Shown here: piece after piece, positions 20,993 through 60,833 of the stretch | Layout of the letters: each line of letters opens with the position of its first letter | How positions within the stretch are numbered: the first letter of the stretch is position 1 | Assembly (NCBI GenBank): GCA_902573115.1 | Contig: CACGIM010000002.1 | Coordinates: forward strand, 11,649 to 75,648 | Source of the DNA: an uncultured Candidatus Poseidoniales archaeon | Lineage (GTDB): Archaea > Thermoplasmatota > Poseidoniia > Poseidoniales > Thalassarchaeaceae | DNA length: 64,000 bases | Reading direction: 5' to 3' | Translations under genes and position numbers: made by a program | The notes under the pieces: generated by a model | The model's database searches: none | Seen by the model: the letters and a program-made list of their open reading frames with translations, nothing else | Told to the model about the DNA's origin: nothing

Positions 20993-23932
20993 TCAATCCA
21001 CAGATTTCCGAATATGTCTCAGAACAATCTCCACACTTGGGATTGTATGGTCCTCCAAGGTTGGAGAGAAGGGTACTGGGGTATCAAGTGCTCCCACCAC
21101 CACGGGAGCAGACTCTAATCTCCAAAATGACTCCTCTACGATCCTACTGACCACGGTGTGCCCAAAACCCCCGGTCCATTGGGCTTCCTGCAGAACTATC
21201 ACCCTACCGGTCCTGATTACAGATTGGATGCATGTATCTGCATCAAAAGGAAGTAGAGTTCTAAGATCGATGACCTCAACCTCGGTTCCATTTTTTGCAG
21301 CTTCTTCTGATGCTCTTAGAGCCACATGGACCATAGCTCCCCATGTTATTATTGTTATATCTCTACCACCTCTTAGAACTCGCGCCTCTCCAATTGAGAG
21401 CTGCCCTTTTGAAACCCTATTTTGGACAGCAGTTGTATCCACTATTTGGTTGATATTATCCCCCCAACCAGTCAATCCACCTCTCAAACCGTAAAGTCCA
21501 ATGTGTTCTAGGAAAACGACAGGATCTGGAAGTTGGTGGGACTCTATCAACAAATCATATGCATCCTGTGGATTGCTTGGGGCGACCAAAATCAATCCAG
21601 GATCATTAGCCATCCAGGATTCAATCATATTTGCGTGATATGGGCCGCTTCGAGTTTTAGCTCCCAATGGAATTCTAACTGTTAAGGGGACCTCTGCCCC
21701 CCACCTCCATCTTAGCTGAGCAGTATTATTTAACAACGGATTGAGGGCAAGTGCCGCAAATCCTCCAAATTGAATCTCTGCCAGGGGGCGCATGCCCCCC
21801 AATGCAGCTCCAGTAGCTGAGTGGATAATAATAGCCTCCGAGAGAGGCATGTCCAGGAGGGCCTTGTGATGGCCCTTCGACTTCAAAGGAAGATTCATTC
21901 CGAAGGCCCCAGCAACCTCCATGTCTTCTCCCATAAATACGATTTGATCTCCGAATTGATCTGCCAGAGTCGCCATGGCATTCTGAATTGACCTGCTATA
22001 ACTCCAAGAGTTGGGTGCATCGGAAAATTCGATTGATTGCTCTCCGGGTGCCAATGATTGGTCCACTTGCTTTAAGTCTCTATTTATTCTAGATAGTTGA
22101 TTTTCATGAGAGGAAGCGTCCTGAATTGAAGTGATGCCCATAACAACGGAGTTTCCCTCGGGCCATTCCATTTTTTCTAATTGCTCCCTAGACCTTAAGA
22201 TTGCAATTTCCTCCTTCTCAACCATTTCACTCAGCTCTCCTTCACTAACGCCCATGTTGATGAGAGCTTCCATGTGGTTCGGAAGAGGGTCTTTATTTGA
22301 CCAATATGAAATCAAATCCCTATCTACATAGCCCGGAGGATTACCCGAAGCGGCCCCAAGATACAAATCATCATGATGATGGGCATGTCCGCAGCCTCTC
22401 ATTGTCTCGACATGGATTAGAGTTGCCCCCCCTCCGCTTAATGCGAATTCTCTGGAAACCGCAGTAGATGAATAGAAACTAGTTGGATCGGATCCATCGA
22501 TTGTCCAAGATGGGATTCCCATCCCGTGTCCTTTGTCGCCGAATGTTTCTGCTCCGGATTGTGAAGATGCGAATGTGTCTAGGGCAATTTGATTATTCTG
22601 AATCATGTAGCAAATTGGAAGGCCGCGAACACCCGCGAAATTCATAGCCTCCCAAAATTCTCCACTGCTACTGCAACCCTCGCCAACAGGTGCTAGATGG
22701 AACCTTTCAATTCCCAATCTCTTAGCAGCAAGAGCCACTCCAGTTGTTGTTGCACTGGCTATTGGCAGTGGTGCGGTGGGCGGTAAGATTCTCTTTTCCC
22801 AGTTCCCAATATGTAAGTCTCTTCCGCCACATCCCTCATGTCCACCGTTCATGTATGATTCTGATTTACCCATTTGGGCAGAAAGAACCTCGATCGTTGT
22901 TTGCCCCATTGCCAAAGCAAGACCAACATCTCTGATCATGGGCGCGACGACATCTGCCTTATGGGACTCATTTTTAGGAAGATCAACTGCTCTAATCAGT
23001 GCCGAGGCACATGCAACCACGCCTTCCTGCCATGTAGATCTGAATCCTTTTCCTCCAAATTTGCTCCCATCTGGAGCTGGTAAACCAGAGGTAAATAGGT
23101 CCTTTAGTTGCTCATCAACTAGTCTTGTTCTTGTCATCCATTTTTGCCATTGAATTCTCTGACCGATTGTAACCGAATAAGAATGTGCAATTCTTCTCAA
23201 GCAAAGACTCACGTCGATCAGGAATCTTTCTGCTCTTCTTGCAAGGTGAACATAACCACCCCTAAGTGGAATAACCTCCAGACCCCCCAGCTCTAGGAGG
23301 TCAGGTTCGAGCAATCTATCTGAAAGTTTTGCCCTGAGTTTGGAAACGAAAAAAATAGAAAAATCGTGGAACTCTTTCCCGTTGAATTGTTCCTTTTTTT
23401 CACATTCATTCCAGCAGTCCAATACAAGATTGAGATAACCATCATGCCTTTCGGCCATGAACCTAATTAGCTCATTACGCGCTGAATCCTCTTTGATCGG
23501 CCTTGAAAACTCTAATGGGGATTCTGGGCTCCAACCCAGGCCCCAAATTACAGGCAAATCAGATTGTTTAGCAGGCTCCCCGTAAATCTGTTGTTTTGCT
23601 GATGGTTCACTAACATTATTTTCGTTCCTCTTTTTTGCCTCTTCTTGTAGTATTGCCATGTTTGTATTGGGTTTTCTCTCCCAAATCACAACCTCTCTGG
23701 ACCTTCCCTTGCCAGAGGAAGAGCGGTCTATGGTGGCCCTGACTCTTTTTCCGCAGCTTGAACAGCGCCTATCTAATTTGTTTCCGTTATTGGATTTAAT
23801 TTTCCAAGTCTGATGAAAACCACACTTAGGGCATTGCCAGACTCCTCTCCTCACCCCTCCCATAGGGCTGGCAAGACATACTACTACAACAATTATTCGG
23901 ATTATTGAATAGTCTTTTACCACATTATTCAT
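20993..23932 (-). CDS. Fused 2-oxoacid dehydrogenase E1 component (alpha and beta in one polypeptide) with an N-terminal extension of about 280 aa that includes a Cys4 Zn ribbon
   Basis: TPP motif GEGCSSSGEFWEAMNFAGVRGLPICYMIQNN. The transketolase-like Pyr domain and C-terminal domain follow (IVFMGEDME..., NPQDAYDLL). Zn-ribbon CPKCG..CSSCG near the N-terminus. No E2 or E3 gene is nearby. Confidence 0.75.
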   Translation of the reverse strand: MNNVVKDYSIIRIIVVVVCLASPMGGVRRGVWQCPKCGFHQTWKIKSNNGNKLDRRCSSCGKRVRATIDRSSSGKGRSREVVIWERKPNTNMAILQEEAKKRNENNVSEPSAKQQIYGEPAKQSDLPVIWGLGWSPESPLEFSRPIKEDSARNELIRFMAERHDGYLNLVLDCWNECEKKEQFNGKEFHDFSIFFVSKLRAKLSDRLLEPDLLELGGLEVIPLRGGYVHLARRAERFLIDVSLCLRRIAHSYSVTIGQRIQWQKWMTRTRLVDEQLKDLFTSGLPAPDGSKFGGKGFRSTWQEGVVACASALIRAVDLPKNESHKADVVAPMIRDVGLALAMGQTTIEVLSAQMGKSESYMNGGHEGCGGRDLHIGNWEKRILPPTAPLPIASATTTGVALAAKRLGIERFHLAPVGEGCSSSGEFWEAMNFAGVRGLPICYMIQNNQIALDTFASSQSGAETFGDKGHGMGIPSWTIDGSDPTSFYSSTAVSREFALSGGGATLIHVETMRGCGHAHHHDDLYLGAASGNPPGYVDRDLISYWSNKDPLPNHMEALINMGVSEGELSEMVEKEEIAILRSREQLEKMEWPEGNSVVMGITSIQDASSHENQLSRINRDLKQVDQSLAPGEQSIEFSDAPNSWSYSRSIQNAMATLADQFGDQIVFMGEDMEVAGAFGMNLPLKSKGHHKALLDMPLSEAIIIHSATGAALGGMRPLAEIQFGGFAALALNPLLNNTAQLRWRWGAEVPLTVRIPLGAKTRSGPYHANMIESWMANDPGLILVAPSNPQDAYDLLIESHQLPDPVVFLEHIGLYGLRGGLTGWGDNINQIVDTTAVQNRVSKGQLSIGEARVLRGGRDITIITWGAMVHVALRASEEAAKNGTEVEVIDLRTLLPFDADTCIQSVIRTGRVIVLQEAQWTGGFGHTVVSRIVEESFWRLESAPVVVGALDTPVPFSPTLEDHTIPSVEIVLRHIRKSVD

Positions 23933-23976
23933 AAATTATCGAAAAATCTTCATCAAAATTGATTTATTTGTGTTTA

Positions 23977-24096
23977 AAACCACAATAAAAAGGTAGACTA
24001 AGTATATTTTTACCGTATAAAATATATACTTTTACTTTTACATGTATATTATTCTTTGAAACCACAATAAAAAGATTAACTTAATTCCATTTTACC
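23977..24096. repeat. AT-rich intergenic region with an imperfect direct repeat of about 82-bp period (identical 16-mer aaaccacaataaaaag twice, each followed about 20 nt later by attttacc)
   Basis: Read directly from the sequence at 23977-23992 and 24059-24074. Lies between the moeZ stop and the E1 start. Confidence 0.6.
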
Positions 24097-24098
24097 AC

Positions 24099-25250
24099 TT
24101 AATATTTTATTATTGATGAGTCTATGGTATCAGACCATAGATGAATCCCTCCCAGTAGATTGTACACATTTTCCTTGCTCCACCCATTATCTGACAGAAA
24201 TCTGACAACCGCATCTGATCTAACCCCTGTCCTGCAATATACCACAATGTCATTATCTCTTGGCAACTCTTGCATTTTCGACGGGACTTCCAAATGCATT
24301 ATTCTCAAATCGGTCCCTTGCAATGAAGTAATTGCCTCCTCATCGGCTCTTCTCACATCTAAAAGGAAAGGTTTCCAACCTTGAGCACGCTTATTCACGA
24401 AATCAATCGGGGAAATTTCCAAAGTGTTCGAGGAAGTTGGATCTACAGGATCTTGTGTGGGCTCGCAAGCGGCCATTACAAGCTCTTCTGACATTTCTGT
24501 AATTGGCTTTCTTGTTGTGTCTTTACCGTAAGTTAGTAGTCGGGTAGCCATTGTTTTGACGTCAATTACCAACAATTGACCGGATAGGGATTTGCCGATT
24601 CCAAGTAGGATTTTAATCGCTTCACTAGCTTGCATAGTTCCGATAATTCCAGGAAGAACGCCCAATACCCCGGCTTCAGCACAATTCGGAGCTAGCTCAG
24701 GGGATGGTGCGGATGGGAACAAATCTCGATAATTTGGGCCATTATTGTAGTTGAATACACTAACCTGACCTTCGAATCTATGTATGCTTCCAAAAATCCA
24801 TGGCGTACCCAGAATTTCACAAGCATCACTGATTGTGTATCGAGTGGGAAAATTGTCTGAACCATCAATGACAACATCCCATCCCGCCAGCAAATGGAGA
24901 GAGTTCCCTGCATTTAATCTGGTATTGAAACTCACAACATCTACTCCAGGATTCAATTCTGATATACTCCTTCTTGCCGAATCCGATTTCAACGAGCCGA
25001 CATCAGATGTGGAGTGAATAATCTGTCTTTGAAGATTGGAAATGTCAACTTCATCGTCATCAATAATTCCAATTTTACCTATTCCTGCGGCTGCCAGATA
25101 TAGAAGAGCAGGAGATCCTAGGCCTCCAGCCCCAATCACCATTACTGATGACTGGCGCAATGCTTTCTGACCATCCTCCCCCACATCTGGTAGAATTATG
25201 TGGCGCGCGTATCTAGCTCGCTCATTTGGGCTCAATTGATCTTTTGCCAT
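24099..25250 (-). CDS. moeZ: MoeB/ThiF-type E1-like adenylyltransferase with C-terminal rhodanese domain (MoeZ/UbaA-like)
   Basis: GAGGLGSP nucleotide-binding motif and CxxC pairs, C-terminal rhodanese with the catalytic CRTG motif. Confidence 0.8.
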   Translation of the reverse strand: MAKDQLSPNERARYARHIILPDVGEDGQKALRQSSVMVIGAGGLGSPALLYLAAAGIGKIGIIDDDEVDISNLQRQIIHSTSDVGSLKSDSARRSISELNPGVDVVSFNTRLNAGNSLHLLAGWDVVIDGSDNFPTRYTISDACEILGTPWIFGSIHRFEGQVSVFNYNNGPNYRDLFPSAPSPELAPNCAEAGVLGVLPGIIGTMQASEAIKILLGIGKSLSGQLLVIDVKTMATRLLTYGKDTTRKPITEMSEELVMAACEPTQDPVDPTSSNTLEISPIDFVNKRAQGWKPFLLDVRRADEEAITSLQGTDLRIMHLEVPSKMQELPRDNDIVVYCRTGVRSDAVVRFLSDNGWSKENVYNLLGGIHLWSDTIDSSIIKY

Positions 25251-29795: not shown

Positions 29796-32700
29796 ATGGG
29801 CGCACGCAGAGCTGTGTATGCTTCGACGATACTACTCATCCTCATAGCGCCATTAAGCTCCTCTTCCATTCATCAAGAGCAAGATCGAATTGGGGGATTT
29901 GATGCAGATGGCGTTTGGTCCCCTAGCGTAGAGCTGGAGATCCACAGAGAATGGTGGACAGAATGGAGCAGAGATAAGGATCACAACGCACTAGACGATC
30001 GTCTGGAGTGGCTCATTGAACAACCAGGGGAAATCCAAAGAAATTGGTGGAAAAGGGCTCCAGATGGAAGTGCAAGAGTTTTCGTGGATTATGATCATCA
30101 TCCAACAGATGCGGATATTTACGCTTTGGAGTCTATTGGGGTGAAAGTGACCCACCGATTCGAGTACCTTGACACGGTTTCGGCTTCGGCACCATTCGAT
30201 ATAATCGTCAGGGAAGATGGGATTAGATCCCTATCAGGGGTAGTGATGATTGAGGATCTAGGTCTTGCAGAAACAAATATGCATGAAGCGAATCCAAACA
30301 TGGGAGTAGACTCGGTTTGGCAGGATCTGGGGTTAGATGGAACGGGCTCTGTGATCGCAGTATTGGATACTGGAGTTAGGGGGGATCATGAAGGTCTAAA
30401 TGACATGGATGACGATCCATTTACCTGCATAGATGATCCTCCCGAGCCTGATCCTCTTGACCCCGAACCTGAACCAATTCCTTCAGACTGTGACCCTAAA
30501 ATCATAGCTTTCTTTGACGCGGTTATAACCGACGAGGAACAGGATCCCTCGACGTCTTATGATTCGGGTACACATGGGACTCACGTAGCTGGAATAGCGG
30601 CTGGTTCTGGGGGAGGGCAAAGTGACTCAAGTACAGGTCTTAGGTACGTTGGGGCAGCTCCTGGCGCGTATCTGATCAATATCTTGGGATGTTGCGATGG
30701 TGACATAGAAGATGTAATGCAAGGAGCGGAATGGGCAATAAACAACAAAGACAAGTATGGTATCGATATCGTAACGTCTTCTCTTGGCGAGCAGCAATTA
30801 GAATTGCATCTCGATAACGACGGAAATTCCGCTTGGAGTCGTCAGATGGACATGGTCGTGGAGGCGGGAATTATCACGACCTTGTCTGCTGGTAACGAGT
30901 TTGGAGGTGCGACTCTCGCGGGATGCAACACAATAGATAGTCCCGGAGATGCGAGGCTGCCAGTCACGGTAGCAAGTTTGGATAAGAATCTAGGTTTAGC
31001 CATATACAGTAGTAGGGGGTATACCTCCGATCTTAGGGTAAAACCTGATGTTGCGACAATCGGATCCAATATAATGGCCCCAGATGCGGCGACCCAAGAT
31101 GGTTACACAAGTAAGTCAGGCACCAGTATGGCCACCCCATTAATGGCAGGAATCGCTGCTCTGATGGTTCAGGCAAATCCCGATTTAACCCCTTCCGAGT
31201 TCAAGGATATTATCTCAGCCCACGCAATAGAGCGAGAAATTCAGCTACTTAATGACCCTGGATTTAATGATTGCAGCATATTAGAAAGTCGTCCGGATAA
31301 CGAGTTCGGCTATGGGCAAGCAGACCCCACTGCCTTCGTCGAAGCGGCCGGAAGCATTGATCGTTCACTCAATGTTTCTATGGATGTGAATACTCTAGAA
31401 CAAATTGGTAATGAAAGCTATGTTACTGGCACATCCTCCGGAGCCGCACCTGGAACTGGTAGCGTCGAGGTTAAGGTAGGAGGGGGAGAGTGGTTTGTAG
31501 CAGCTGACCTATCGATAAATGGGGACTGGTCATCGTGGAGCATCAAATTGGATCCTCATGAAAAATCGGGGAACTCCACCATTTACGCAAGACTAGCGGT
31601 TTCTGAAGACAGTGTGTCACCAGTTGACGCTCGCAGGGTTGTGTTGGTCGATGCGCAAGCAACCGGAAGCTCATCCTCGCCTGGTGGATTGGTGAATTTA
31701 GGCCCTATTACATTCTTCATTCCATTCATTGTTGCAATTGTTTTGGTTGTCTTCATTGGAAGGAAAGAGGCGTGGACGTTCGATCAGGAAGATTCTGACA
31801 AAGACGATTCGAAAATGTCCTCGGCCGATTTGGAAAAGTCAGACTATCAGACTATCATTGAAAGGTTCTCTAATGGTTTCAAAGAGCTGGGCAAGGGTGG
31901 CACGATAACTGATAACTCAGTGAAGAGGGTACTGACTCTTTGTGTTCTGTATTTTGCACAGGGACTTCCTTCTGGATTCGCCATAGTTACCTTTGCAGCT
32001 TACCTAGTCTCAAACGGAGTCTCAGTCCCAGAGATAGCTATTCTATTTGCAACCGTGTCTCTCCCTTGGACATTCAAGTGGATTTGGGGGCCGCTAGTTG
32101 ATTCAGTGTATGTGGAAAGGTACGGCCCCAGAAGACAGTGGATTCTATTCGCACAAACAGGGATGGCCATATCACTGGGCTCCCTATTGCTGGTCTCTGA
32201 TTTGAATGGGCAAATAGATCTTGTTGCGAGGATTCTGTTCATTCACAACATTTTCGCATCGATGCAGGATGTCGCTACGGACGCTCTAGCTGTTGAGGTT
32301 TTGCAGCCTGATGAGGTCGCCAGAGTAAATGGACTCATGTTCGCTGCAAAGAGGGTCGGGATTATCTTCGGAGGTGCCGTTTTGGGTGTACTGATATCGA
32401 AGATTGGTATCTCTGGAGTCATTGCAGCTCAGTTAGTAATGCTAGCGATTATTATTGTCGTGCCACTAACTATGGTGGAAAAGGAAGGTGTGAAGCTTTT
32501 CCCATGGTCCAAATCACATGAAGGGCTTGATTCATCTGAAGATCGAGCTGATTCGGAGGCGTTGATCGCAGAAGTTGTAGATGAGTCGGATCTATCTCCC
32601 TGGGAAGAGGAGGATGAGTTTAGAGTTGCTAGAACAGTCGGATTTAGTATAGCTGAAGACTCTGTTTCCTTCGCTTCATTCTTCGCAATTCTTGGAATCT

Positions 32701-33671
32701 CGATTTGGCTCTTTGGATTCGTAATTGACGTTTTTACAGTGGATTGGACCTTCGGAAAACATGTGAGAGAAGGGTTTCCCGCACTGGAAGGCAAGAAAAT
32801 CCTAGGGCTGGATATTTTGCCGTGGTCTGGAACCAATAGAGTCAGTTTAGCATTAATCTTGCTTTCAGTCTTCTCGGTAGTTTACTCAAGATTCTCTGAC
32901 TCGGAACAAAGTGCATCATTACCCAACCCCTTCCTTTTGCTACCAGAGTCTAGTAGAATAACGATTGCCAGAACTTCATTCTACCTCACCAAGGCCTTCT
33001 CGGTAAGGTCTGCTTTCCTACTTGTTATTGCTGGCTTGCTTGGAGAGCTGTATTATTTCACTAGCCCAATTTACGTTGATATATTCATCAACGAGGCTGG
33101 GTGGTCACAAGAGAAGTATAATGGGATTGTGGGGGGTATAGCGCTGCTAGGTTCCGTTACTGGACAAATAATTGGAGGGATTCTCGGGGACAAGTTCGGG
33201 ATTCGCAGAGTTGCGATGGTGTCATTTGTGGTTCTCGCTCTTGCAAACGCTACTTTTGCATTCCTAGAGCCTTTCTGGGGCAATACGATCATTATGACTG
33301 TCTATCTCATTGGACAGTATTTTGTAGCGGGCATAGCCTTAATTTGCATAATTTCTCTTTGTATGAGATTGACATGGAGCAAAGTAGGCGGAACTCAATT
33401 TACTGCCTACATGTCCATACTGAACACTTCGGTAGTATTCGCATACACATTAACTGAGAGGATGATTTCGATATTCAACTATACCTCTGCAATATACATC
33501 GGAGCTGCACTTACACTGGTGACTACATTCTTCCTCTTCTTCATTGATGAGAATGAGACTGACAGAGTATTGGAGGGAAGAGATACAGGAGAGGATGAGA
33601 TAGATGATCTGGGAGAGTCTGTTTGGTTGAAAAAGGAGCAAGGGGGAGAGAATCCTGTCACGTCTTCATGA
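29796..33671 (+). CDS. Fusion protein: secreted S8 subtilase domain, a single TM anchor, and a C-terminal AmpG-like MFS transporter domain of 12-14 TM
   Basis: Signal peptide. S8 triad motifs AVLDTGV, HGTHVAG and GTSMATP. The TM is PITFFIPFIVAIVLVVFIG. MFS signature LPWTFKWIWGPLVD plus 12-14 TM. One uninterrupted 1291-codon frame. Confidence 0.7.
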   Translation: MGARRAVYASTILLILIAPLSSSSIHQEQDRIGGFDADGVWSPSVELEIHREWWTEWSRDKDHNALDDRLEWLIEQPGEIQRNWWKRAPDGSARVFVDYDHHPTDADIYALESIGVKVTHRFEYLDTVSASAPFDIIVREDGIRSLSGVVMIEDLGLAETNMHEANPNMGVDSVWQDLGLDGTGSVIAVLDTGVRGDHEGLNDMDDDPFTCIDDPPEPDPLDPEPEPIPSDCDPKIIAFFDAVITDEEQDPSTSYDSGTHGTHVAGIAAGSGGGQSDSSTGLRYVGAAPGAYLINILGCCDGDIEDVMQGAEWAINNKDKYGIDIVTSSLGEQQLELHLDNDGNSAWSRQMDMVVEAGIITTLSAGNEFGGATLAGCNTIDSPGDARLPVTVASLDKNLGLAIYSSRGYTSDLRVKPDVATIGSNIMAPDAATQDGYTSKSGTSMATPLMAGIAALMVQANPDLTPSEFKDIISAHAIEREIQLLNDPGFNDCSILESRPDNEFGYGQADPTAFVEAAGSIDRSLNVSMDVNTLEQIGNESYVTGTSSGAAPGTGSVEVKVGGGEWFVAADLSINGDWSSWSIKLDPHEKSGNSTIYARLAVSEDSVSPVDARRVVLVDAQATGSSSSPGGLVNLGPITFFIPFIVAIVLVVFIGRKEAWTFDQEDSDKDDSKMSSADLEKSDYQTIIERFSNGFKELGKGGTITDNSVKRVLTLCVLYFAQGLPSGFAIVTFAAYLVSNGVSVPEIAILFATVSLPWTFKWIWGPLVDSVYVERYGPRRQWILFAQTGMAISLGSLLLVSDLNGQIDLVARILFIHNIFASMQDVATDALAVEVLQPDEVARVNGLMFAAKRVGIIFGGAVLGVLISKIGISGVIAAQLVMLAIIIVVPLTMVEKEGVKLFPWSKSHEGLDSSEDRADSEALIAEVVDESDLSPWEEEDEFRVARTVGFSIAEDSVSFASFFAILGISIWLFGFVIDVFTVDWTFGKHVREGFPALEGKKILGLDILPWSGTNRVSLALILLSVFSVVYSRFSDSEQSASLPNPFLLLPESSRITIARTSFYLTKAFSVRSAFLLVIAGLLGELYYFTSPIYVDIFINEAGWSQEKYNGIVGGIALLGSVTGQIIGGILGDKFGIRRVAMVSFVVLALANATFAFLEPFWGNTIIMTVYLIGQYFVAGIALICIISLCMRLTWSKVGGTQFTAYMSILNTSVVFAYTLTERMISIFNYTSAIYIGAALTLVTTFFLFFIDENETDRVLEGRDTGEDEIDDLGESVWLKKEQGGENPVTSS

Positions 33672-33921
33672 GATCATCGGAGGCGCCGATCGGGATTTCC
33701 TTGTCTTCACTCAGACCATATGTCCCTATTGCACGAGGGCTTTCAGAACCCTTGATTCGAAGGGGTTTAGTTACATCGAGGTAAATCTTGACAGCTTTGA
33801 TGGATTGAGAAAGGAGGTAGTTGCTGTGACAGGTCACAGAACGGTCCCAGTTGTCTTCGATATGAGAGGCGAAGAACCGGTCTTTGTAGGGGGCTCGGAC
33901 CATTTAATCGAATACGTCTAG
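33670..33921 (+). CDS. Glutaredoxin-like ORF (CPYC active site) with no ATG/GTG/TTG start. Expression is uncertain.
   Basis: Frame +1 relative to the upstream gene translates to ...DFLVFTQTICPYCTRAF...TVPVVF...GGSDHLIEYV*. The frame is open from 33631 and contains no canonical start before CPYC. Confidence 0.45.
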   Translation, partial: EIIGGADRDFLVFTQTICPYCTRAFRTLDSKGFSYIEVNLDSFDGLRKEVVAVTGHRTVPVVFDMRGEEPVFVGGSDHLIEYV

Positions 33922-41785: not shown

Positions 41786-44700
41786 ATGAGCGTGCCTGTT
41801 TCTCCTGGTGACCTTGACCCGGTTTCTCTCGAAGGGTCGATCGTAAAGAAATGGGAAGAGGAGGGTACATTCTCTGAGTCGATAAACTCAAGGAAGAATT
41901 CTGGAGTGCCTTTCACATTTCTGGAAGGACCGCCTACGGCCAATGGAAAGCCAGGAATTCATCACGTTCTTTCCAGGTTGTTCAAGGACATGGTCTGTCG
42001 ATGGAAGTCAATGGAGGGGCATGTTGTGGAGCGGAAAGGAGGTTGGGATACCCATGGTCTTCCTGTGGAAATTGAAGTCCAGAAACAACTGAGCCTGATG
42101 TCGAACGAAGCTATCGAAAAGTTCGGGATGGAAGAGTTTAATCAGAAGTGCAAGGAGAGTGTGTGGACTTACGAAGAAGCTTGGAGAGAAATGACAGAGA
42201 GGATGGGATTCTGGGTCGATATGGAAGATCCTTACGTCACTCTGCATGACGAATATATCGAGTCCGCCTGGTGGTCGTTGAAACAGATGTTCGAAAAGGG
42301 GTTGCTATTCAGAGGGCACAAAGTTCTACCATACTGCCCCCAAACAGGAACCAGCTATTCCACACATGAAGTTTCACAGGGATACAAAGAAGTCTCTGAG
42401 CCAGCTGTTTTTGTAAAGTTTCGAATCGAAGGCGATGACGCCTCGGTCTTAGCATGGACTACAACTCCTTGGACTCTGCCCGGCAATGTTGGACTGGCTG
42501 TTGGGCCGGAGGTAACCTATTGCAGAGTTAGGATAACAGAGCCTCCTTCAGACTCTTGGGAAGGAAGAGGTGGAGCACAAGTTGGCGAAGAGCTGATTCT
42601 CGCAAAGGATCTAATCGGAAGCGTACTTAGAAACCACGCAGAAGTAATCGAGGAGTTCAACGGCTCAGATCTCGTTGGAAAGGCATACTCGCCCCTTTTT
42701 CCAGGGGCTGTGGAGAAGGGCAACTCACAGACCGCGTGGACAATTGTTGCTGCAGACTTTGTGACAACTACAGATGGTACAGGAGTTGTCCACACGGCAG
42801 TGATGTACGGAGAGGATGATTACAGGTTAGGTATGGAGGTTGGTTTCCCTGCGCAGCACACCGTAGGAATGGATGGTGCCTTCCTTGAGGGTGTACATGA
42901 ATCTCTGGATGGCAGATATGTGAAAGATTGCGATGACAGGATAATCGATCTTTTAGACTCGCAAGGGCTTCTTTACAGGGAGCACGAGTACACTCATGAC
43001 TACCCTCATTGTTGGAGAACAGACCATCCTCTTCTCTACTACGCGATGGACAGCTGGTTTGTTAGGATGACAGCCGTTAAGGACCAGATACTAGATCACA
43101 ATGCCAGTGTGGAATGGGCACCTGAATGGACAGGAACCAAGAGAATGGGAGAATGGCTATCCAACATCAAGGATTGGGCTATTAGCCGTGAACGGTACTG
43201 GGGAACCCCGATTCCTGTCTGGATCTGCCCGGACTGCGGAACGGAACATTGTGTTGGGAGTATCGAGGAGATGAGCTCGATGAAGACAGAATCCTCCCCA
43301 ATCCCACCAGAGCTCCATAGGCCGTATGTAGATGATGTCAGGCTCTTGTGCCCTCAGAAGGGCTGCTCAGGCGAGATGATTAGGGAACCCTACGTCATGG
43401 ATTGCTGGTTCGACTCAGGCTGTGCCTCTTTTGCCCAATGGCACTACCCATTTGAGAACGAGGAGCTCTTTGAGGGGTCGTTCCCGGTTGACTACATTTG
43501 CGAGGCTGTGGATCAAACAAGAGGGTGGTTTTACTCACTCCTGGCAGTTTCTACCTCTGTATTTGACCAACCGTGCTTCCGGAGATGCCTCTCTCTTGGG
43601 CATATTTTAGACAAAGACGGTAAGAAGATGAGCAAGTCTAGGGGGAATGTGGTAGATCCATGGAATCATTTCAACAAAGAAGGTGCTGACTCAATCAGAT
43701 GGTACATGACCACCCAAAGTGCACCATGGTCACCTACAAATTTTGATCCGAATGGAGTAAGAGAATCCTATGCAAAGATGTTCTTGACATTATGGAACGT
43801 GTATCGCTTCCATGCAGACTATGCTGCTCTGGATGGATTTGACCCTGAAGACGGTTCTGGATTCGTAGAGGTGACTGAAAGAAGTTCTTTGGATAGGTGG
43901 GTGCTATCAAAGTTAACCGATATGGCGGATAGCTATCACTCCAGCTTCGTTTCTTGGGACTTCCACAAGGCAGGCAGAGGATTGGAGGACTTCGTTGTAA
44001 ATGATCTATCGAACTGGTATGTACGTAGATCTAGGAGAAGGTTGTGGGATGAGGCCGACAGTAAGGACAAAAGGGCTTGCCAGCACACATTACACGAGGT
44101 CTTACTAATCGTTTGCAGACTAATGTCCCCGGTATCTCCTTTCATGCCCGATCATATACACAGAGAGCTAACCGGATCATCAGTACACTTAGCAGATTGG
44201 CCAGTGGGCTCAGATATAGTTGAAAGATCCCTACCCCCGAGGGACTTGATTCTTGAACAGGAGATGACGCTAGTCAGGTCTCTTGCAGAGGCGGGAAGAA
44301 GAATTCGAGTGGAGTCGGGCAGAAGGCAGAGGCTCCCCTGCAGGACTGGTTGGGTGATCGGCGGACCTGACATTTCCCGTTTCAGTGATATTCTGGCAGA
44401 GGAACTTAATGTCGAACATTTGTACTCTGAGGAGGATCTTGATTCCTTCCAAAGAGTGGTGCTAGAGCCAAACAGAAAGGTGTTAGGTGGAAAATGCCGA
44501 TCAGACTTACCAGCAGTTCTTGAAGAGCTCTACGAATCTGATCCCGAATCACTGCTATTGGAGATAGAAGCGGGAATCGCGGCTTTAGCTGGATATGAGA
44601 TAACAATTGAAGACATTGAAATCAGGAGAGTCGAAAAGGAGGGGTTTGCGGCCCAGACATTATCTCTGGAGGAAGGAGATGTGTCCATAGTTTTGGACAT

Positions 44701-46477: not shown

Positions 46478-47911
46478 TCATTTCAGACGCCAAGTGACTC
46501 CGTCGGACCCATCTTCGACTATAACTCCGGCCTTAGATAACTCATTTCTAATCTCGTCCGCTCGAGCCCAGTCCTTGGAAGCCCTCGCCTTTTCCCTCTC
46601 CGAGAGGAGCCCCTCCACCATTGGTGCAATCTCTGAGAGTTTACCCTCGGAGCTTTTCATTGTAGAGAGGACTCCGGTGTCTTCAGGAAGTAGTCCTAGA
46701 ACCTCTCCTGCGTACTCACCTATCCATCCTGTGCACTCACCGATTTCTTCTTCCTTGTCTCCAGAATCCAAGAGAAATCTGAGCCTCTTAGTCACGGACT
46801 GTACCTCGACCAGTGCTGTCCTTGTGTTAAAGTCGTCATTCATCCCTTTTTTTAGGCTTTTAGAACATTCTAACAGAAATTTATTTTCCCTCCAATCCAT
46901 TTTCCCAACGGTGGAAAGACCTTCGCCGTAGCATGTTATTAATCTGCTGTGGTGTGACTTTGCATCTTCCAGCATCACTTGATTAAAATCCATTGGCTGC
47001 CTGTAGGGTGCGTTAATTAGGGAATATCTTAGAACTAGGGGGTCAATCTTCTCAAGGGCATCTGATATGGTCCAGAAATTACCCAGAGACTTGCTCATTT
47101 TCTCTCCTTCGACATTAATCATTCCATTATGGATCCAGTATTGTACAACTGGATCGTGGCCCAGACAACACTCTGACTGGAATATCTCAGCTTCGTGGTG
47201 AGGGAAAATCAAATCTGACCCGCCGCCGTGGATGTCGAACCTCTCGCCGAGATGCTTCAGAGACATGGCAGAACACTCAATATGCCACCCTGGTCTACCA
47301 GGCCCCCAAGGGCTATCCCAAGATGGCTCTCCTGGCTTTGCCATCTTCCATAGAGCGAAATCTCTGTGGTCTCTCTTTCCAGACCCAGTCTTATCCACTC
47401 TCCCACCAGCTCCAGCTCGAACCATTTCTAACGTTTGACCAGTAAGCTGTCCGTACTTCCCAGGAGATGTTTCAATCTCGAAGTATACACCATCCCCCCC
47501 TTGGTATGCATGCCCCTTCTCAACAAGATCGGAAACCATAGCGATGATTTCAGGAATAGTCTCTGTGACCCTAGGATAGGCATCCGCACGAATCACATTT
47601 AATGCGTCCATACAATTGAAGTAATCAGAAATATATCTGTTTGCGAGCTCTAGGAAGTCAATGCCTTCCTCATTAGCGGCAGAGATTATTTTATCATCGA
47701 CGTCAGTAAAGTTGGTTATGTAATTGACCATGTATCCGCTCTTCCTGAGCCATCTGACTATTATATCGAAAGATATAGCCTGCCTTGCGTGCCCTATGTG
47801 ACTGGGAGAGTAAGGAGTTATTCCGCATGCATATAGCCCCAATTTTCCCTCCTCTAAAGGAACAAGGTCTCTTTTTGACCTTGATCTTGTGTCGTATACC
47901 CTCTGTGTCAC
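46478..47911 (-). CDS. cysS: Cysteinyl-tRNA synthetase
   Basis: CGITPYSPSHIGHAR (HIGH) and KMSKSLGN motifs. Confidence 0.9.
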   Translation of the reverse strand: MTQRVYDTRSRSKRDLVPLEEGKLGLYACGITPYSPSHIGHARQAISFDIIVRWLRKSGYMVNYITNFTDVDDKIISAANEEGIDFLELANRYISDYFNCMDALNVIRADAYPRVTETIPEIIAMVSDLVEKGHAYQGGDGVYFEIETSPGKYGQLTGQTLEMVRAGAGGRVDKTGSGKRDHRDFALWKMAKPGEPSWDSPWGPGRPGWHIECSAMSLKHLGERFDIHGGGSDLIFPHHEAEIFQSECCLGHDPVVQYWIHNGMINVEGEKMSKSLGNFWTISDALEKIDPLVLRYSLINAPYRQPMDFNQVMLEDAKSHHSRLITCYGEGLSTVGKMDWRENKFLLECSKSLKKGMNDDFNTRTALVEVQSVTKRLRFLLDSGDKEEEIGECTGWIGEYAGEVLGLLPEDTGVLSTMKSSEGKLSEIAPMVEGLLSEREKARASKDWARADEIRNELSKAGVIVEDGSDGVTWRLK

Positions 47912-59135: not shown

Positions 59136-60833
59136 CTAATCGTTAGGTCTTCTCCATGACCATTTTGCCATAATAGCTGTTTGGGAGATGGACAAACCGA
59201 GTGCCCACCAGATCCAGATTGGCAAACCAAGTACATATCCTGAGGAGTCATCCCACCACCAAAAGTCTTGAGCTAGTACAAAAATGCCTGTCAACCCCAA
59301 TAGGTATAGAGCTTCATTTGATCCTGCCCCCCTACTTTCCAATGTTAATCGCTTCCCGGTGAATGCATACTGGGATGCTAGCAGGGCAAATATTGCCGCA
59401 GCCAACGATGGAACTACTGCAGTAGGAACCGCAGCCTTCACAGGTTGGATCCACCATCCATCAAATGATTCGGGGGAAAATAATGCAAGAAAAACAATCG
59501 CTTCACCAGCTAATATGGAGCAGACGACTGATCGGCCATCTATGTTGTCAGAAAAGGCTGTGGCAAATACCGAAGGGAACATTACCGCATACATTGAGAA
59601 TGCAAGGAGCCCTAAATCAAGGATTGAGAGATCCGACCAAAGGGATAGGACAAGACCGGTTATTGCCAAACTAATTATTACCGATTCTCTTGAAATAACA
59701 GGATTCTCTCCTCCTTGCTCTCCTATCCACGAAACAGACTCGCTCAAATCATCCATCTCACCCTGCCGGTGGCTACCTTTTGGAATTAGGTCTCTTGTCA
59801 CCAATGAACCAGTAGCTAGGAGCTGTGAGTCCATTGTGGACATGAGAGCTGCAAGGCCTGCAACAAGCACCAGTCCGCCAAGCCATTCTCCTCCAACTTC
59901 CATAATCATAGTTGGTAGGATATTGTCAGACCCAGTTCTGTCCAGACCTGGGTATCTGATGTGACCAATAATCCCGATCATTATTGGTGGGAGGAAGGCC
60001 AACCATGCTACTGCTGGGTATAAGGTAGCCATCTTTCCTATGGACTCATCGCTATCTGCTGCGCAAAGTCTCTGATATAGCTGGGGAAACATTGGGTCAG
60101 CGAAAAGCCACAACAGCATTGTGCTTGTCCAGACTAACAAGACATAATTTCCCTCCCTATTTAGAAGTCTTGAGGTGTCCTCGTTAGATCTGAGACTGTC
60201 CATGGCGGCCTCGATACCACCCGCATCTCCTACTACCATTGCCAGACCTACCCATAGCAACGCTAGAGCCAACGCTCCTTGGGCAACATCAGTCCTAACA
60301 ACTGCCTTCAGGCCGCCTGTTAGCGTATATCCAACTACTAAGACCGTTACAAGGACAGCTCCTACCCACTCAGGTCCTCCAAAAAGTGCAGAGAAAACTA
60401 TGCCTGCCGCTCTAGGTTGTAGAGCCAAATAAGGAATTGTGGCCAAAACAAGAATTGATGCCATGGTGATCTGGGCGTTTCTAGATCCGGTCTGGCCTCT
60501 AATCATCTCGGGCGCAGTGATTGCCCCATGTTGGATTGACCTAGCCCTAATTCTCCTTCCCAATACAAACATCGAGACGGCCATGAAGCCTGTCCCAAAT
60601 GCCATTATTGGTAGAAAGGAAAGTCCTACTCTGTATGCGGCACCACTTGATCCATATACCGTAAATGCACTAAAGTTGGTTGCTGCCATAGTAACTAACA
60701 AAATTGGCCCAGTCAGCCCCCTTTCAGCTAGGTAGTAAGATTCGTCTTCATTTCCCAAATCTCGTCTAGCCCAAATAGCAAATAGCATCATTGCAATTGC
60801 ATATGCGGAAACGATGAGCCAAGCAGAAGACAT
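59136..60833 (-). CDS. Sodium:solute symporter (SSS) family transporter
   Basis: GGLKAVVRTDVAQG signature and about 13 TM. Carries a loop motif shared with the C-terminus of the S8-MFS fusion. Confidence 0.75.
   Translation of the reverse strand: MSSAWLIVSAYAIAMMLFAIWARRDLGNEDESYYLAERGLTGPILLVTMAATNFSAFTVYGSSGAAYRVGLSFLPIMAFGTGFMAVSMFVLGRRIRARSIQHGAITAPEMIRGQTGSRNAQITMASILVLATIPYLALQPRAAGIVFSALFGGPEWVGAVLVTVLVVGYTLTGGLKAVVRTDVAQGALALALLWVGLAMVVGDAGGIEAAMDSLRSNEDTSRLLNREGNYVLLVWTSTMLLWLFADPMFPQLYQRLCAADSDESIGKMATLYPAVAWLAFLPPIMIGIIGHIRYPGLDRTGSDNILPTMIMEVGGEWLGGLVLVAGLAALMSTMDSQLLATGSLVTRDLIPKGSHRQGEMDDLSESVSWIGEQGGENPVISRESVIISLAITGLVLSLWSDLSILDLGLLAFSMYAVMFPSVFATAFSDNIDGRSVVCSILAGEAIVFLALFSPESFDGWWIQPVKAAVPTAVVPSLAAAIFALLASQYAFTGKRLTLESRGAGSNEALYLLGLTGIFVLAQDFWWWDDSSGYVLGLPIWIWWALGLSISQTAIMAKWSWRRPND

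What the first reader, a model, noticed from the sequence alone, without database searches (positions are those of the whole stretch)
33597..33700. Near-identical motif shared by the tail of the S8-MFS fusion and a loop of the SSS symporter at 59688-59761
The final 22 aa of the fusion, EIDDLGESVWLKKEQGGENPVTSS, match the loop EMDDLSESVSWIGEQGGENPVISRES (aa 359-384) of the SSS transporter 26 kb away. The match also holds at the DNA level: gagtctgtt and gagcaagg.ggagagaatcctgt are nearly identical in both genes. Homology continues across the fusion gene's stop codon (tca TGA gatcatcgg against tca AGA gaatcgg), so the stop arose by a single A-to-T change inside a once-longer shared segment. Two unrelated transporter families share this short acidic cytoplasmic module. 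That suggests either a recently exchanged cassette or a common docking motif for one partner protein, for example a regulator or the downstream glutaredoxin.
Basis: seen in the sequence. Interest (0 to 1): 0.6.

Follow-up and report, generated by a model that had tools for sequence, protein, structure and literature searches.

The report
Transporter tail copied into another transporter
A 66-base piece from the end of one transporter gene was copied once, in frame, into a floppy internal loop of an unrelated transporter gene 26 kb away in a marine archaeon; the copy has since drifted almost freely, so it is a mutational fossil and not a shared functional module.

Summary
Window 33592-33658 (+) and 59698-59764 (-) match at 82% over 67 nt (blastn E=5e-14). 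This is the longest inverted repeat in the window.

- **The MFS tail is ancestral.** The acidic tail (…DDLGESxWW…GGExPVxx*) and its stop codon are conserved at the same position in more than 100 Poseidoniales (Marine Group II archaea) orthologues.
- **The SSS loop is derived.** It is an exact 22-codon insertion, present only in one shallow Thalassarchaeaceae subclade. The sister clade and all outgroups have an empty site (…SQLH|ISRES…).
- **The similarity past the stop codon is native SSS sequence.** It is also present in the empty allele, so no A-to-T change created the stop.
- **The insert is not an artefact.** It occurs on at least 22 independent contigs.
- **It is not a mobile cassette.** No third copy turned up in protein or DNA searches.
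- **It is barely constrained.** Insert dN (0.18-0.44) is about equal to dS, whereas the rest of the gene has ω≈0.13. AlphaFold2 predicts a disordered loop.

Best explanation: a single, one-way, illegitimate copy-paste from the MFS gene to the SSS gene. The copy was tolerated in a cytoplasmic loop and is now decaying.

Interest is low to moderate.

The parts
33593..33658 (+). Donor block: 66 nt, essentially the last 22 codons of the MFS tail before the final TSS* (DEIDDLGESVWLKKEQGGENPV). It also holds the start region of the overlapping glutaredoxin frame.
   Evidence: Repeat arm. The tail is conserved at this position in orthologues.
59698..59763 (-). Inserted copy: 66 nt (22 codons, GEMDDLSESVSWIGEQGGENPV) inside the SSS gene. 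It is absent from the sister clade and from all outgroups.
   Evidence: AlphaFold2 predicts coil with pLDDT below 50 for residues 353-379.
29796..33671 (+). S8 peptidase-MFS transporter ORF (1291 aa). This is the donor gene.
   Evidence: Pfam Peptidase_S8 at 182-507, MFS_1 from 715.
59136..60833 (-). Sodium:solute symporter (SSS) ORF (565 aa). This is the recipient gene.
   Evidence: The Pfam SSF match stops at residue 357, just before the insert.
33659..33680 (+). Right flank of the donor (CACGTCTTCATGAGATCATCGG, spanning the MFS stop codon). It resembles the native right flank of the target site.
   Evidence: Smith-Waterman score 9, reached by 23 of 5000 shuffles. A role as an annealing guide is inferred, not shown.
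59681..59697 (-). Native SSS sequence directly 3' of the insert (TATTTCAAGAGAATCGG = ISRES). It is identical in the empty-site allele.
33604..33921 (+). Glutaredoxin reading frame overlapping the MFS tail. The ATG at 33604 is followed by an in-frame TGA at 33628-33630. The rest of the frame (33631-33921, CPYC motif) is intact but has no canonical start codon.

Best explanation
In the common ancestor of one shallow Thalassarchaeaceae (Marine Group IIb) subclade, 66 bp from the 3' end of the MFS transporter gene were copied once into the SSS symporter gene about 26 kb away. The copy is inverted on the chromosome but has the same sense and frame relative to the gene.

**Shown.**
- The donor is window 33593-33658. 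It is an old, conserved acidic C-terminal tail that also overlaps the start of a glutaredoxin gene.
- The block landed between CA and TATT of the sequence …AGC CAA CTT CA|T ATT TCA….
- It added 22 residues to the loop that follows the helix aligning with the Na2-site helix (core TM8) of SGLT1. Only 1 nt (left) and 0 nt (right) of junction homology are visible.
- The loop was tolerated. It is predicted to be disordered and has since diverged at roughly the neutral rate in every descendant lineage.
- The 82% identity seen in the window is therefore the decayed remnant of an originally near-identical copy.

**Inferred.**
- The event was an illegitimate repair or replication accident. It could have been repair of a break in the SSS gene by copying from, or capturing, an ectopic fragment.
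- A pre-existing resemblance between the two right flanks (TTCAtGAGA…ATCGG against TTCAaGAGA-ATCGG) possibly guided it.
- The loop carries no function of its own.
For: **Direction of the copy.**
- All 15 aligned SSS orthologues, from 93% down to 43% identity, lack the segment. The closest (P0002) reads PKGSQLH-ISRES where the window reads PKGSHRQ[22 aa]ISRES. The DNA alignment shows a clean gap of exactly 66 nt.
- The MFS tail motif and its stop position are conserved in about 120 orthologues and 22 species-level genomic loci across Poseidoniales.

**The insert is real and arose once.**
- The 565-aa form occurs in several distinct sequence variants (at least seven full-length cluster members) from independent assemblies. 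P0241 alone is on 22 contigs.
- In the neighbour-joining tree the insert-bearing sequences form one clade (58% bootstrap). The empty-site clade is its sister (100%), and all outgroups are empty.

**Common origin with the tail.**
- The majority consensus of five insert variants matches the consensus of three close MFS tails at 58 of 63 positions (92%). That is higher than any single insert achieves against the tail consensus (73-85%).
- For example, the tail ancestor TGG TGG became TGG TTG in the window tail and TCG TGG in the window insert.

**Relaxed constraint.**
- In the flanks, dS is 0.19-0.32, dN about 0.03 and ω about 0.13 for pairs of distinct lineages; the near-identical window/L011 pair has dS 0.04.
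- In the insert, for the same pairs, dN is 0.18-0.44 and dS is 0.08-0.68.
- Pooling two independent pairs gives 21.3 nonsynonymous and 9.7 synonymous changes. That is compatible with neutrality and about 4 SD away from the ratio seen in the flanks (my own arithmetic).

**Structure.**
- The insert is coil with pLDDT below 50 (residues 353-379), between helices 305-349 and 379-399.
- The preceding helix aligns with SGLT1 residues 358-420.

**Not a repeat family.**
- There are two copies in the window.
- Across all 38 fetched loci the motif occurs only in SSS inserts and MFS tails.
- Two hits in JGI metagenomes: one insert and one tail.
- No hits in viral contigs.
- No third protein family.
- The donor region has no unusual fold (z=0.34).
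Against: - The molecular mechanism is not observable from sequence. The right-flank resemblance (p≈0.005) was noticed post hoc, and the simplest annealing model predicts a 69-nt product, not 66 nt.
- Monophyly of the insert-bearing clade has only 58% bootstrap support. Spread by homologous recombination between strains, or a precise loss in the empty clade, cannot be excluded.
- All five variants keep exactly 22 codons and the QGGENP end is comparatively well preserved. Weak selection on part of the loop is therefore not excluded; 22 codons give little statistical power.
- I could not recover the MFS tails of the other insert-bearing strains. Occasional gene conversion between the two copies remains untested outside the window genome.
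- The peptide word-index search failed to return even the known SSS positives, so its negative result is weak.
Confidence: 0.85

Rival explanations
1. The segment is a functional short linear motif (a docking or regulatory module) that both transporters use to bind the same cytoplasmic partner, for example the downstream glutaredoxin. The copy was retained by selection for that reason.
For: - Both positions are expected to be cytoplasmic. By established topology, the MFS C-terminus and the loop after core TM8 of LeuT-fold SSS proteins face the cytoplasm.
- The insert has kept its length (22 codons) and an open frame in five diverged variants, and the QGGENP end changes little.
- The MFS tail motif itself is conserved across Poseidoniales.
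Against: - The insert's dN is 6-15 times the dN of the flanks and about equal to dS.
- The residues that are conserved in MFS tails (DLGES, WW) are freely replaced in the inserts: DSGEN, DLGDS, SW, EG, WS.
- The sister clade and all other SSS orthologues function without the loop.
- Part of the conservation of the tail can be explained by its dual coding with the glutaredoxin start.
- AlphaFold2 gives no structure for the loop.
Confidence: 0.06
2. The block is a small mobile or repetitive element that inserts in frame into genes, like the Rickettsia palindromic elements or a MITE. The two copies would then be two insertions of the same element.
For: It is short (66 nt), in frame, and lies in a surface or loop position. 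These are the hallmarks of the in-frame RPE insertions known from Rickettsia (my own knowledge).
Against: - The MFS copy is not an insertion. It is the orthologous, ancient C-terminus of the gene.
- No terminal inverted repeats, target-site duplication or stable fold were found.
- There are only two copies in 64 kb, and none elsewhere in about 550 kb of related loci, in JGI metagenome contigs or in viral contigs.
Confidence: 0.02
3. The two copies are kept similar by ongoing gene conversion (concerted evolution). Alternatively, the insert was acquired from a different strain's MFS tail through imported DNA and not from the resident gene.
For: - The window's insert is no closer to the window's own tail (80%) than to the tail of a related species, L013 (83%). 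A foreign donor allele is therefore possible.
- P0242 looks like a recombinant between SSS lineages (distance matrix), which shows that strains do exchange DNA at this locus.
Against: - Within the window genome the copies differ at 12 of 67 positions, and other strains' inserts are equally distant. Homogenisation is therefore not operating at a detectable rate.
- A foreign donor would change only the source of the template, not the nature of the event.
Confidence: 0.05
4. The similarity is chance, convergence on an acidic low-complexity peptide, or an assembly chimera.
For: The peptide is acidic and glycine-rich. An unrelated repeat protein (P0262) carries TGGENPVT fifteen times by chance.
Against: - DNA-level identity of 82% over 67 nt, including synonymous positions, with E=5e-14.
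- Shuffles give zero matches.
- The insert is present on at least 22 independently assembled contigs from different samples and sources.
Confidence: 0.01

Closest known systems
Capture or copying of ectopic DNA at a chromosomal double-strand break ('filler DNA', templated insertion). Examples: NHEJ-dependent capture of heterologous fragments in Sinorhizobium meliloti (PMC6379672), and the yeast and mammalian cases cited there (mitochondrial DNA and Ty cDNA capture).
   Same: A short stretch identical to sequence elsewhere appears at a new site. Junction homology is nil or 1 nt, there is no target-site duplication, either orientation is possible, and it is a one-off event.
   Different: - Here it is a natural, fixed event in an uncultured archaeon.
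- The donor is a resident gene 26 kb away.
- The product is in frame and survived inside an essential-looking transporter gene.
- No Ku/LigD or other repair machinery was examined. Archaeal end joining is thought to rely on microhomology and on the primase (PMC12019639), which in that study produced mostly 1-2 bp indels.
Microhomology-primed template switching during replication or repair (the model from bacterial genetics for templated mutations; my own knowledge).
   Same: The donor and target right flanks share an imperfect 15-16 nt resemblance next to the junction that could have primed copying. An inverted copy is what a switch to the opposite strand would produce.
   Different: - Classical cases involve nearby quasi-palindromes and a few bases, not 66 nt copied from 26 kb away.
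- The simple annealing register predicts 69 nt, not the observed 66 nt.
Rickettsia palindromic elements (RPE): short repeats inserted in frame into protein-coding genes (my own knowledge).
   Same: A short in-frame insertion adds a surface loop to an otherwise conserved protein and is tolerated.
   Different: RPEs are multi-copy, palindromic selfish repeats. This block has one donor and one copy, shows no palindrome, and the donor is ordinary coding sequence.
Motif or exon shuffling that transfers short linear motifs between proteins.
   Same: A peptide tail of one membrane protein is transplanted into a cytoplasmic loop of another.
   Different: There is no sign that the motif's function travelled with it. 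The copy evolves near-neutrally.

Membership tests
Ectopic templated insertion / dispersed micro-duplication | The inserted segment is absent from orthologues of the recipient (derived state). | tested here: met
   All 15 aligned orthologues and the six full-length 543-aa sister-cluster sequences examined have an empty site. The DNA gap is exactly 66 nt.
Ectopic templated insertion / dispersed micro-duplication | The donor sequence is present elsewhere in the same genome and is ancestral at that place. | tested here: met
   The MFS tail and its stop position are conserved in about 120 orthologues and 22 genomic loci.
Ectopic templated insertion / dispersed micro-duplication | Nucleotide-level identity beyond chance, converging on one ancestor. 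| tested here: met
   82% over 67 nt, E=5e-14. The consensus of the inserts matches the consensus of the tails at 92%.
Ectopic templated insertion / dispersed micro-duplication | Illegitimate junctions: little or no homology and no target-site duplication. | tested here: met
   A 1-nt overlap (A) at the left junction and none at the right. No duplication of target bases.
Ectopic templated insertion / dispersed micro-duplication | Dependence on a break-repair or template-switch pathway. | not testable with these tools
   Only the product is visible. The right-flank resemblance (p≈0.005) is suggestive.
Mobile in-frame repeat (MITE / RPE-like) | Multiple dispersed copies. | tested here: not met
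   Two copies in the window. Elsewhere the motif occurs only in SSS inserts and MFS tails.
Mobile in-frame repeat (MITE / RPE-like) | Terminal inverted repeats or a palindromic fold, and a target-site duplication. | tested here: not met
   The fold z-score is 0.34. The junctions show neither TIRs nor a TSD.
Conserved short linear (docking) motif shared by two transporters | Purifying selection on the motif in both hosts. | tested here: not met
   The insert's dN is about equal to its dS, against ω≈0.13 in the flanks. The key tail residues are replaced in the inserts.
Conserved short linear (docking) motif shared by two transporters | Presence of the motif across orthologues of both families or in further families. 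| tested here: not met
   The motif is absent from all SSS proteins outside one subclade. No third family was found, although one search had low sensitivity.
Conserved short linear (docking) motif shared by two transporters | A demonstrated common binding partner. | not testable with these tools
   This needs a pull-down or two-hybrid experiment.
Gene conversion between paralogous segments | A homologous segment already present at both loci before the exchange. | tested here: not met
   The empty SSS allele has nothing at the site.

The most novel reading that the evidence does not exclude
The block could be one visible product of an active process in Marine Group II archaea that copies short stretches of resident genes into distant sites. 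Such a process could be primase/polymerase-driven or cDNA-mediated, and would act as a regular source of new protein loops. In that case the copy in the SSS loop might retain a weak shared function with the MFS tail, for example through the preserved QGGENP end. Nothing here excludes that many such events exist genome-wide. I could compare only about 100 kb with relatives, and found no second case.
Probability: 0.08. Interest if true: 0.6.

Novelty: new member of a known kind. Interest (0 to 1): 0.3.

Why it matters
This is a clean natural example, with donor, empty site, filled site and several diverged descendants all available, of how a prokaryotic membrane protein gains a new loop by illegitimate copying of a piece of another gene.

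It can be used as a small internal clock. The copy's divergence is about equal to the synonymous divergence of the host gene. It also gives a sequence-level marker for one Thalassarchaeaceae subclade.

It warns against reading short shared peptides as functional modules without checking orthologues. It opens no new biology unless such events prove frequent in these archaea.

Tried and rejected
- **Profile search with a 27-column alignment of tails and inserts.** I replaced it with a concatenated peptide. That returned only one MFS fragment and not even the known SSS positives, so it is a weak negative.
- **Looking up the window's 1291-aa fusion protein.** It is not on record, and the close-relative MFS proteins were missing from the protein index. 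I therefore could not pair MFS tails with SSS inserts from the same foreign genome. The genome scan reached only ±10 kb and the two genes lie 26 kb apart.
- **The 3024-aa hit P0262** (E=9e-17). It is a repeat protein with a chance TGGENPVT in each of 15 repeats. Rejected as unrelated.
- **Hairpin or palindrome in the donor.** None found.
- **Annealing model using the right-flank resemblance.** It predicts a 69-nt insert, but 66 nt is observed. I kept it only as a possibility.
- **L004's odd last codon** (ACA instead of GTT). I considered it as evidence for a different original junction and rejected that as over-reading a single codon.
- **Scan for other templated indels between the window and relatives**. 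Only the SSS insert came up. The method is crude: it chains HSPs and handles coding regions best.
Full report
**What is there.** The window comes from a Marine Group II archaeon. The homologues are named Candidatus Thalassarchaeaceae or Poseidoniales. The closest species-level genome is Euryarchaeota archaeon UBA462, at 95% identity over the MFS C-terminus.

- The + strand carries a 1291-aa ORF (29796-33671) with a Peptidase_S8 domain followed by an MFS transporter.
- The - strand carries a 565-aa sodium:solute symporter (SSS; 59136-60833).
- The last 25 codons of the MFS gene and codons about 358-379 of the SSS gene share a block of 67 nt at 82% identity with no gaps: 33592-33658 against 59764-59698. 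It is the longest inverted repeat in the window, and blastn gives E=5e-14.
- Shuffled controls give no such match.

**Which copy is ancestral.** I aligned the SSS protein with 15 orthologues ranging from 93% to 43% identity. None has the segment. The closest (P0002, 543 aa) reads …DLIPKGSQLH-ISRESVIIS…, where the window reads …DLIPKGSHRQ-GEMDDLSESVSWIGEQGGENPV-ISRESVIIS…. At DNA level the difference is one clean 66-nt gap in otherwise 93%-identical sequence.

The MFS tail shows the opposite pattern. About 120 orthologues and 22 genomic loci from different Poseidoniales species all carry an acidic tail with the same recognisable pattern. Examples are DEFDDLGESPWWDAEEGGEQPVASA*, DEPDDLGESPWWDEEGGGKPVAAT* and, further out, DTDLGERPDWWKDEDLQPSTS*. 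All stop 2-3 residues after the P-V/S position. The tail and its stop codon are therefore old, and the SSS loop is a recent copy of the tail.

The SSS codons opposite the stop (ATT TCA AGA GAA TCG = ISRES) are native SSS sequence and are identical in the allele without the insert.

**Exact anatomy.** The simplest reading needs no extra substitutions. The 66 nt at 33593-33658 (G GAT GAG ATA … AAT CCT GT) were placed between CA and TATT of the empty site …AGC CAA CTT CA|T ATT TCA AGA….

- One base (A) is shared at the left junction and none at the right.
- There is no target-site duplication.
- There are no terminal inverted repeats.
- The donor region has no unusual fold (z=0.34).
- The copy is inverted on the chromosome but is in the same sense and frame in the gene, so the same peptide is read.
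- Immediately to the right, the donor (CACGTCTTCATGAGATCATCGG) and the pre-existing target (TATTTCAAGAGAATCGG) resemble each other more than shuffles do (23 of 5000).

It may have helped an invading or switching strand to anneal, but this is inference, and the simplest register would give 69 nt, not 66.

**Reality and age.**
- The 565-aa form is not an assembly artefact. Its 90% cluster has 21 members. P0241 alone lies on 22 contigs from ENA, Logan, JGI and NCBI assemblies of different samples. Further variants were recovered with their DNA.
- Five distinct insert variants exist, all exactly 22 codons:
  - GEMDDLSESVSWIGEQGGENPV (window)
  - GEIDDLSESVSWKGEQGGENPV
  - NEIDDLGESVWSAEGQEGENPV
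  - NKIDDSGENVWSMEGQGGDNPV
  - DEIGDLGDSVEGIETQGGENPT
- A neighbour-joining tree on the 542 gap-free columns puts the insert-bearing sequences in one clade (58% bootstrap). That clade is sister to the empty-site clade (100%), and all outgroups are empty. A single gain close to the base of a rapid radiation is the most economical reading.
- The majority consensus of the inserts matches the consensus of three closely related tails (window, L038, L013) at 58 of 63 resolved positions (92%). Individual inserts match the tail consensus at only 73-85%. The copies therefore converge backwards in time on one sequence, approximately DEIDDLGESVWWKEEQGGENPV.

**Selection.** I used Nei-Gojobori counts.

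| Region | dS | dN | ω |
|---|---|---|---|
| SSS gene outside the insert (pairs of distinct lineages) | 0.19-0.32 | ≈0.03 | ≈0.13 |
| Insert, same pairs | 0.08-0.68 | 0.18-0.44 | ≈0.5-1 pooled; single pairs 0.3-3.4 |

The near-identical window/L011 pair (flank dS 0.04) is left out of these ranges.

Pooling two phylogenetically independent pairs gives 21.3 nonsynonymous and 9.7 synonymous changes over 104.8 and 27.2 sites. That is compatible with neutrality and about four standard deviations from the ratio in the flanks (my own arithmetic). Residues that are conserved in MFS tails (DLGES, WW) are freely replaced in the inserts.

AlphaFold2, run with the orthologue alignment, predicts the insert as coil with pLDDT below 50 (residues 353-379), between helices 305-349 and 379-399. 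The preceding helix aligns with residues 358-420 of human SGLT1, the helix carrying the Na2-site serines. By the established LeuT-fold topology, the loop after it faces the cytoplasm, as does an MFS C-terminus. The topology is from established knowledge and was not tested here.

**Is the motif anywhere else?**
- Within the window: only the two copies.
- Across all 38 fetched loci (about 0.5 Mb of related DNA): only SSS inserts and MFS tails.
- JGI metagenome contigs, with a 41-nt degenerate pattern fitting both tails and inserts: one insert and one tail.
- Viral contigs: none.
- Full HMMER scan of 1.84 billion representative proteins with the 43-residue tail: MFS fragments, a 2473-aa protein at borderline E=9e-4 with no significant matched stretch (not examined), and one 3024-aa repeat protein whose 15 repeats each contain TGGENPVT by chance.
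- Word-indexed search of 5.8 billion proteins: only an MFS fragment with the window's exact tail. It also missed the known SSS positives, so it counts for little.

There is no evidence for a cassette that visits other genes, nor for a motif shared by transporter families in general.

**Mechanism and verdict.** The event and its direction are shown. The mechanism is inferred.

A one-off, non-homologous copy of 66 bp into a distant site matches the known class of filler or templated insertions made during double-strand-break repair or template switching. Capture of foreign fragments at chromosomal breaks has been demonstrated in bacteria (PMC6379672). Archaeal end joining is thought to use microhomology and the replicative primase, although the indels seen experimentally are mostly 1-2 bp (PMC12019639).

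Only an insertion that is a multiple of three, free of stop codons and located in a permissive loop would survive in this conserved transporter. That filter explains the neat in-frame appearance without invoking function.

The docking-motif idea is not supported. Weak constraint on the QGGENP end cannot be excluded with 22 codons.

The finding is real and tidy, but it is ordinary in kind.

Noticed in passing
window 33604-33921 (+); compare L038 640-760, L013 10905-11222, L002 5523-5813: The glutaredoxin gene overlaps the MFS tail in the +1 frame in every Poseidoniales locus that reached the MFS stop codon (22 of 24 loci). In close relatives it starts at the ATG inside GATGATCTGG. In the window a single G-to-T change at 33628 turns TGG TGG into TGG TTG in the MFS frame and GGA into TGA in the glutaredoxin frame. 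This puts a stop at codon 9 and leaves the intact CPYC domain without any ATG, GTG or TTG start. The same 'WL' tail occurs on an independent ENA contig (P0261), so it is a real variant. Whether the glutaredoxin is still made is open; it could use a non-canonical start or reinitiation, or it could be a fresh pseudogene.
   Followed up: partly
window 29796-33671 (+); L013 7055-10972; L002 1636-3939 and 4001-5563: The S8 peptidase and the MFS transporter form one continuous ORF in the window (1291 aa) and in UBA462 (1305 aa). They are two separate genes (767 aa and 520 aa, 61 nt apart) in a relative whose MFS protein is 79% identical. Most other orthologues are about 885 aa with no S8 Pfam hit. 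The window's fusion protein is not on record in the protein or contig collections.
   Followed up: partly
window 43616-43648 (+) and 47078-47110 (-): The second-longest inverted repeat (33 nt, 79%) is the KMSKS signature of two class I aminoacyl-tRNA synthetase genes. It reads DGKKMSKSRGN in the 1060-aa ORF and EGEKMSKSLGN in the 477-aa ORF. This is conserved-motif homology, not a copy event.
   Followed up: partly
window 23965-24023 and 24047-24105: Two direct copies of a 59-nt AT-rich stretch (71% identical, 82 nt apart) lie in the intergenic region upstream of the - strand ORF ending at 23932. This may be a duplicated promoter region.
   Followed up: no
P0242 compared with P0241, P0247 and P0248 (distance matrix): One SSS variant (P0242) has the P0241-type insert but is intermediate in distance to the other lineages: 15 differences from P0241 and 32 from P0247 or P0248, where P0241 shows 40-47. 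This suggests homologous recombination between strains within this gene.
   Followed up: no
window 59689-59697 (-) / the codon before the insert; L001 2415-2422: The codon just upstream of the insertion point differs consistently. It is CTT (or ATT) in empty alleles, and CGG, TGG or CGT in filled alleles. This may be a scar of the insertion event or an early substitution.
   Followed up: no
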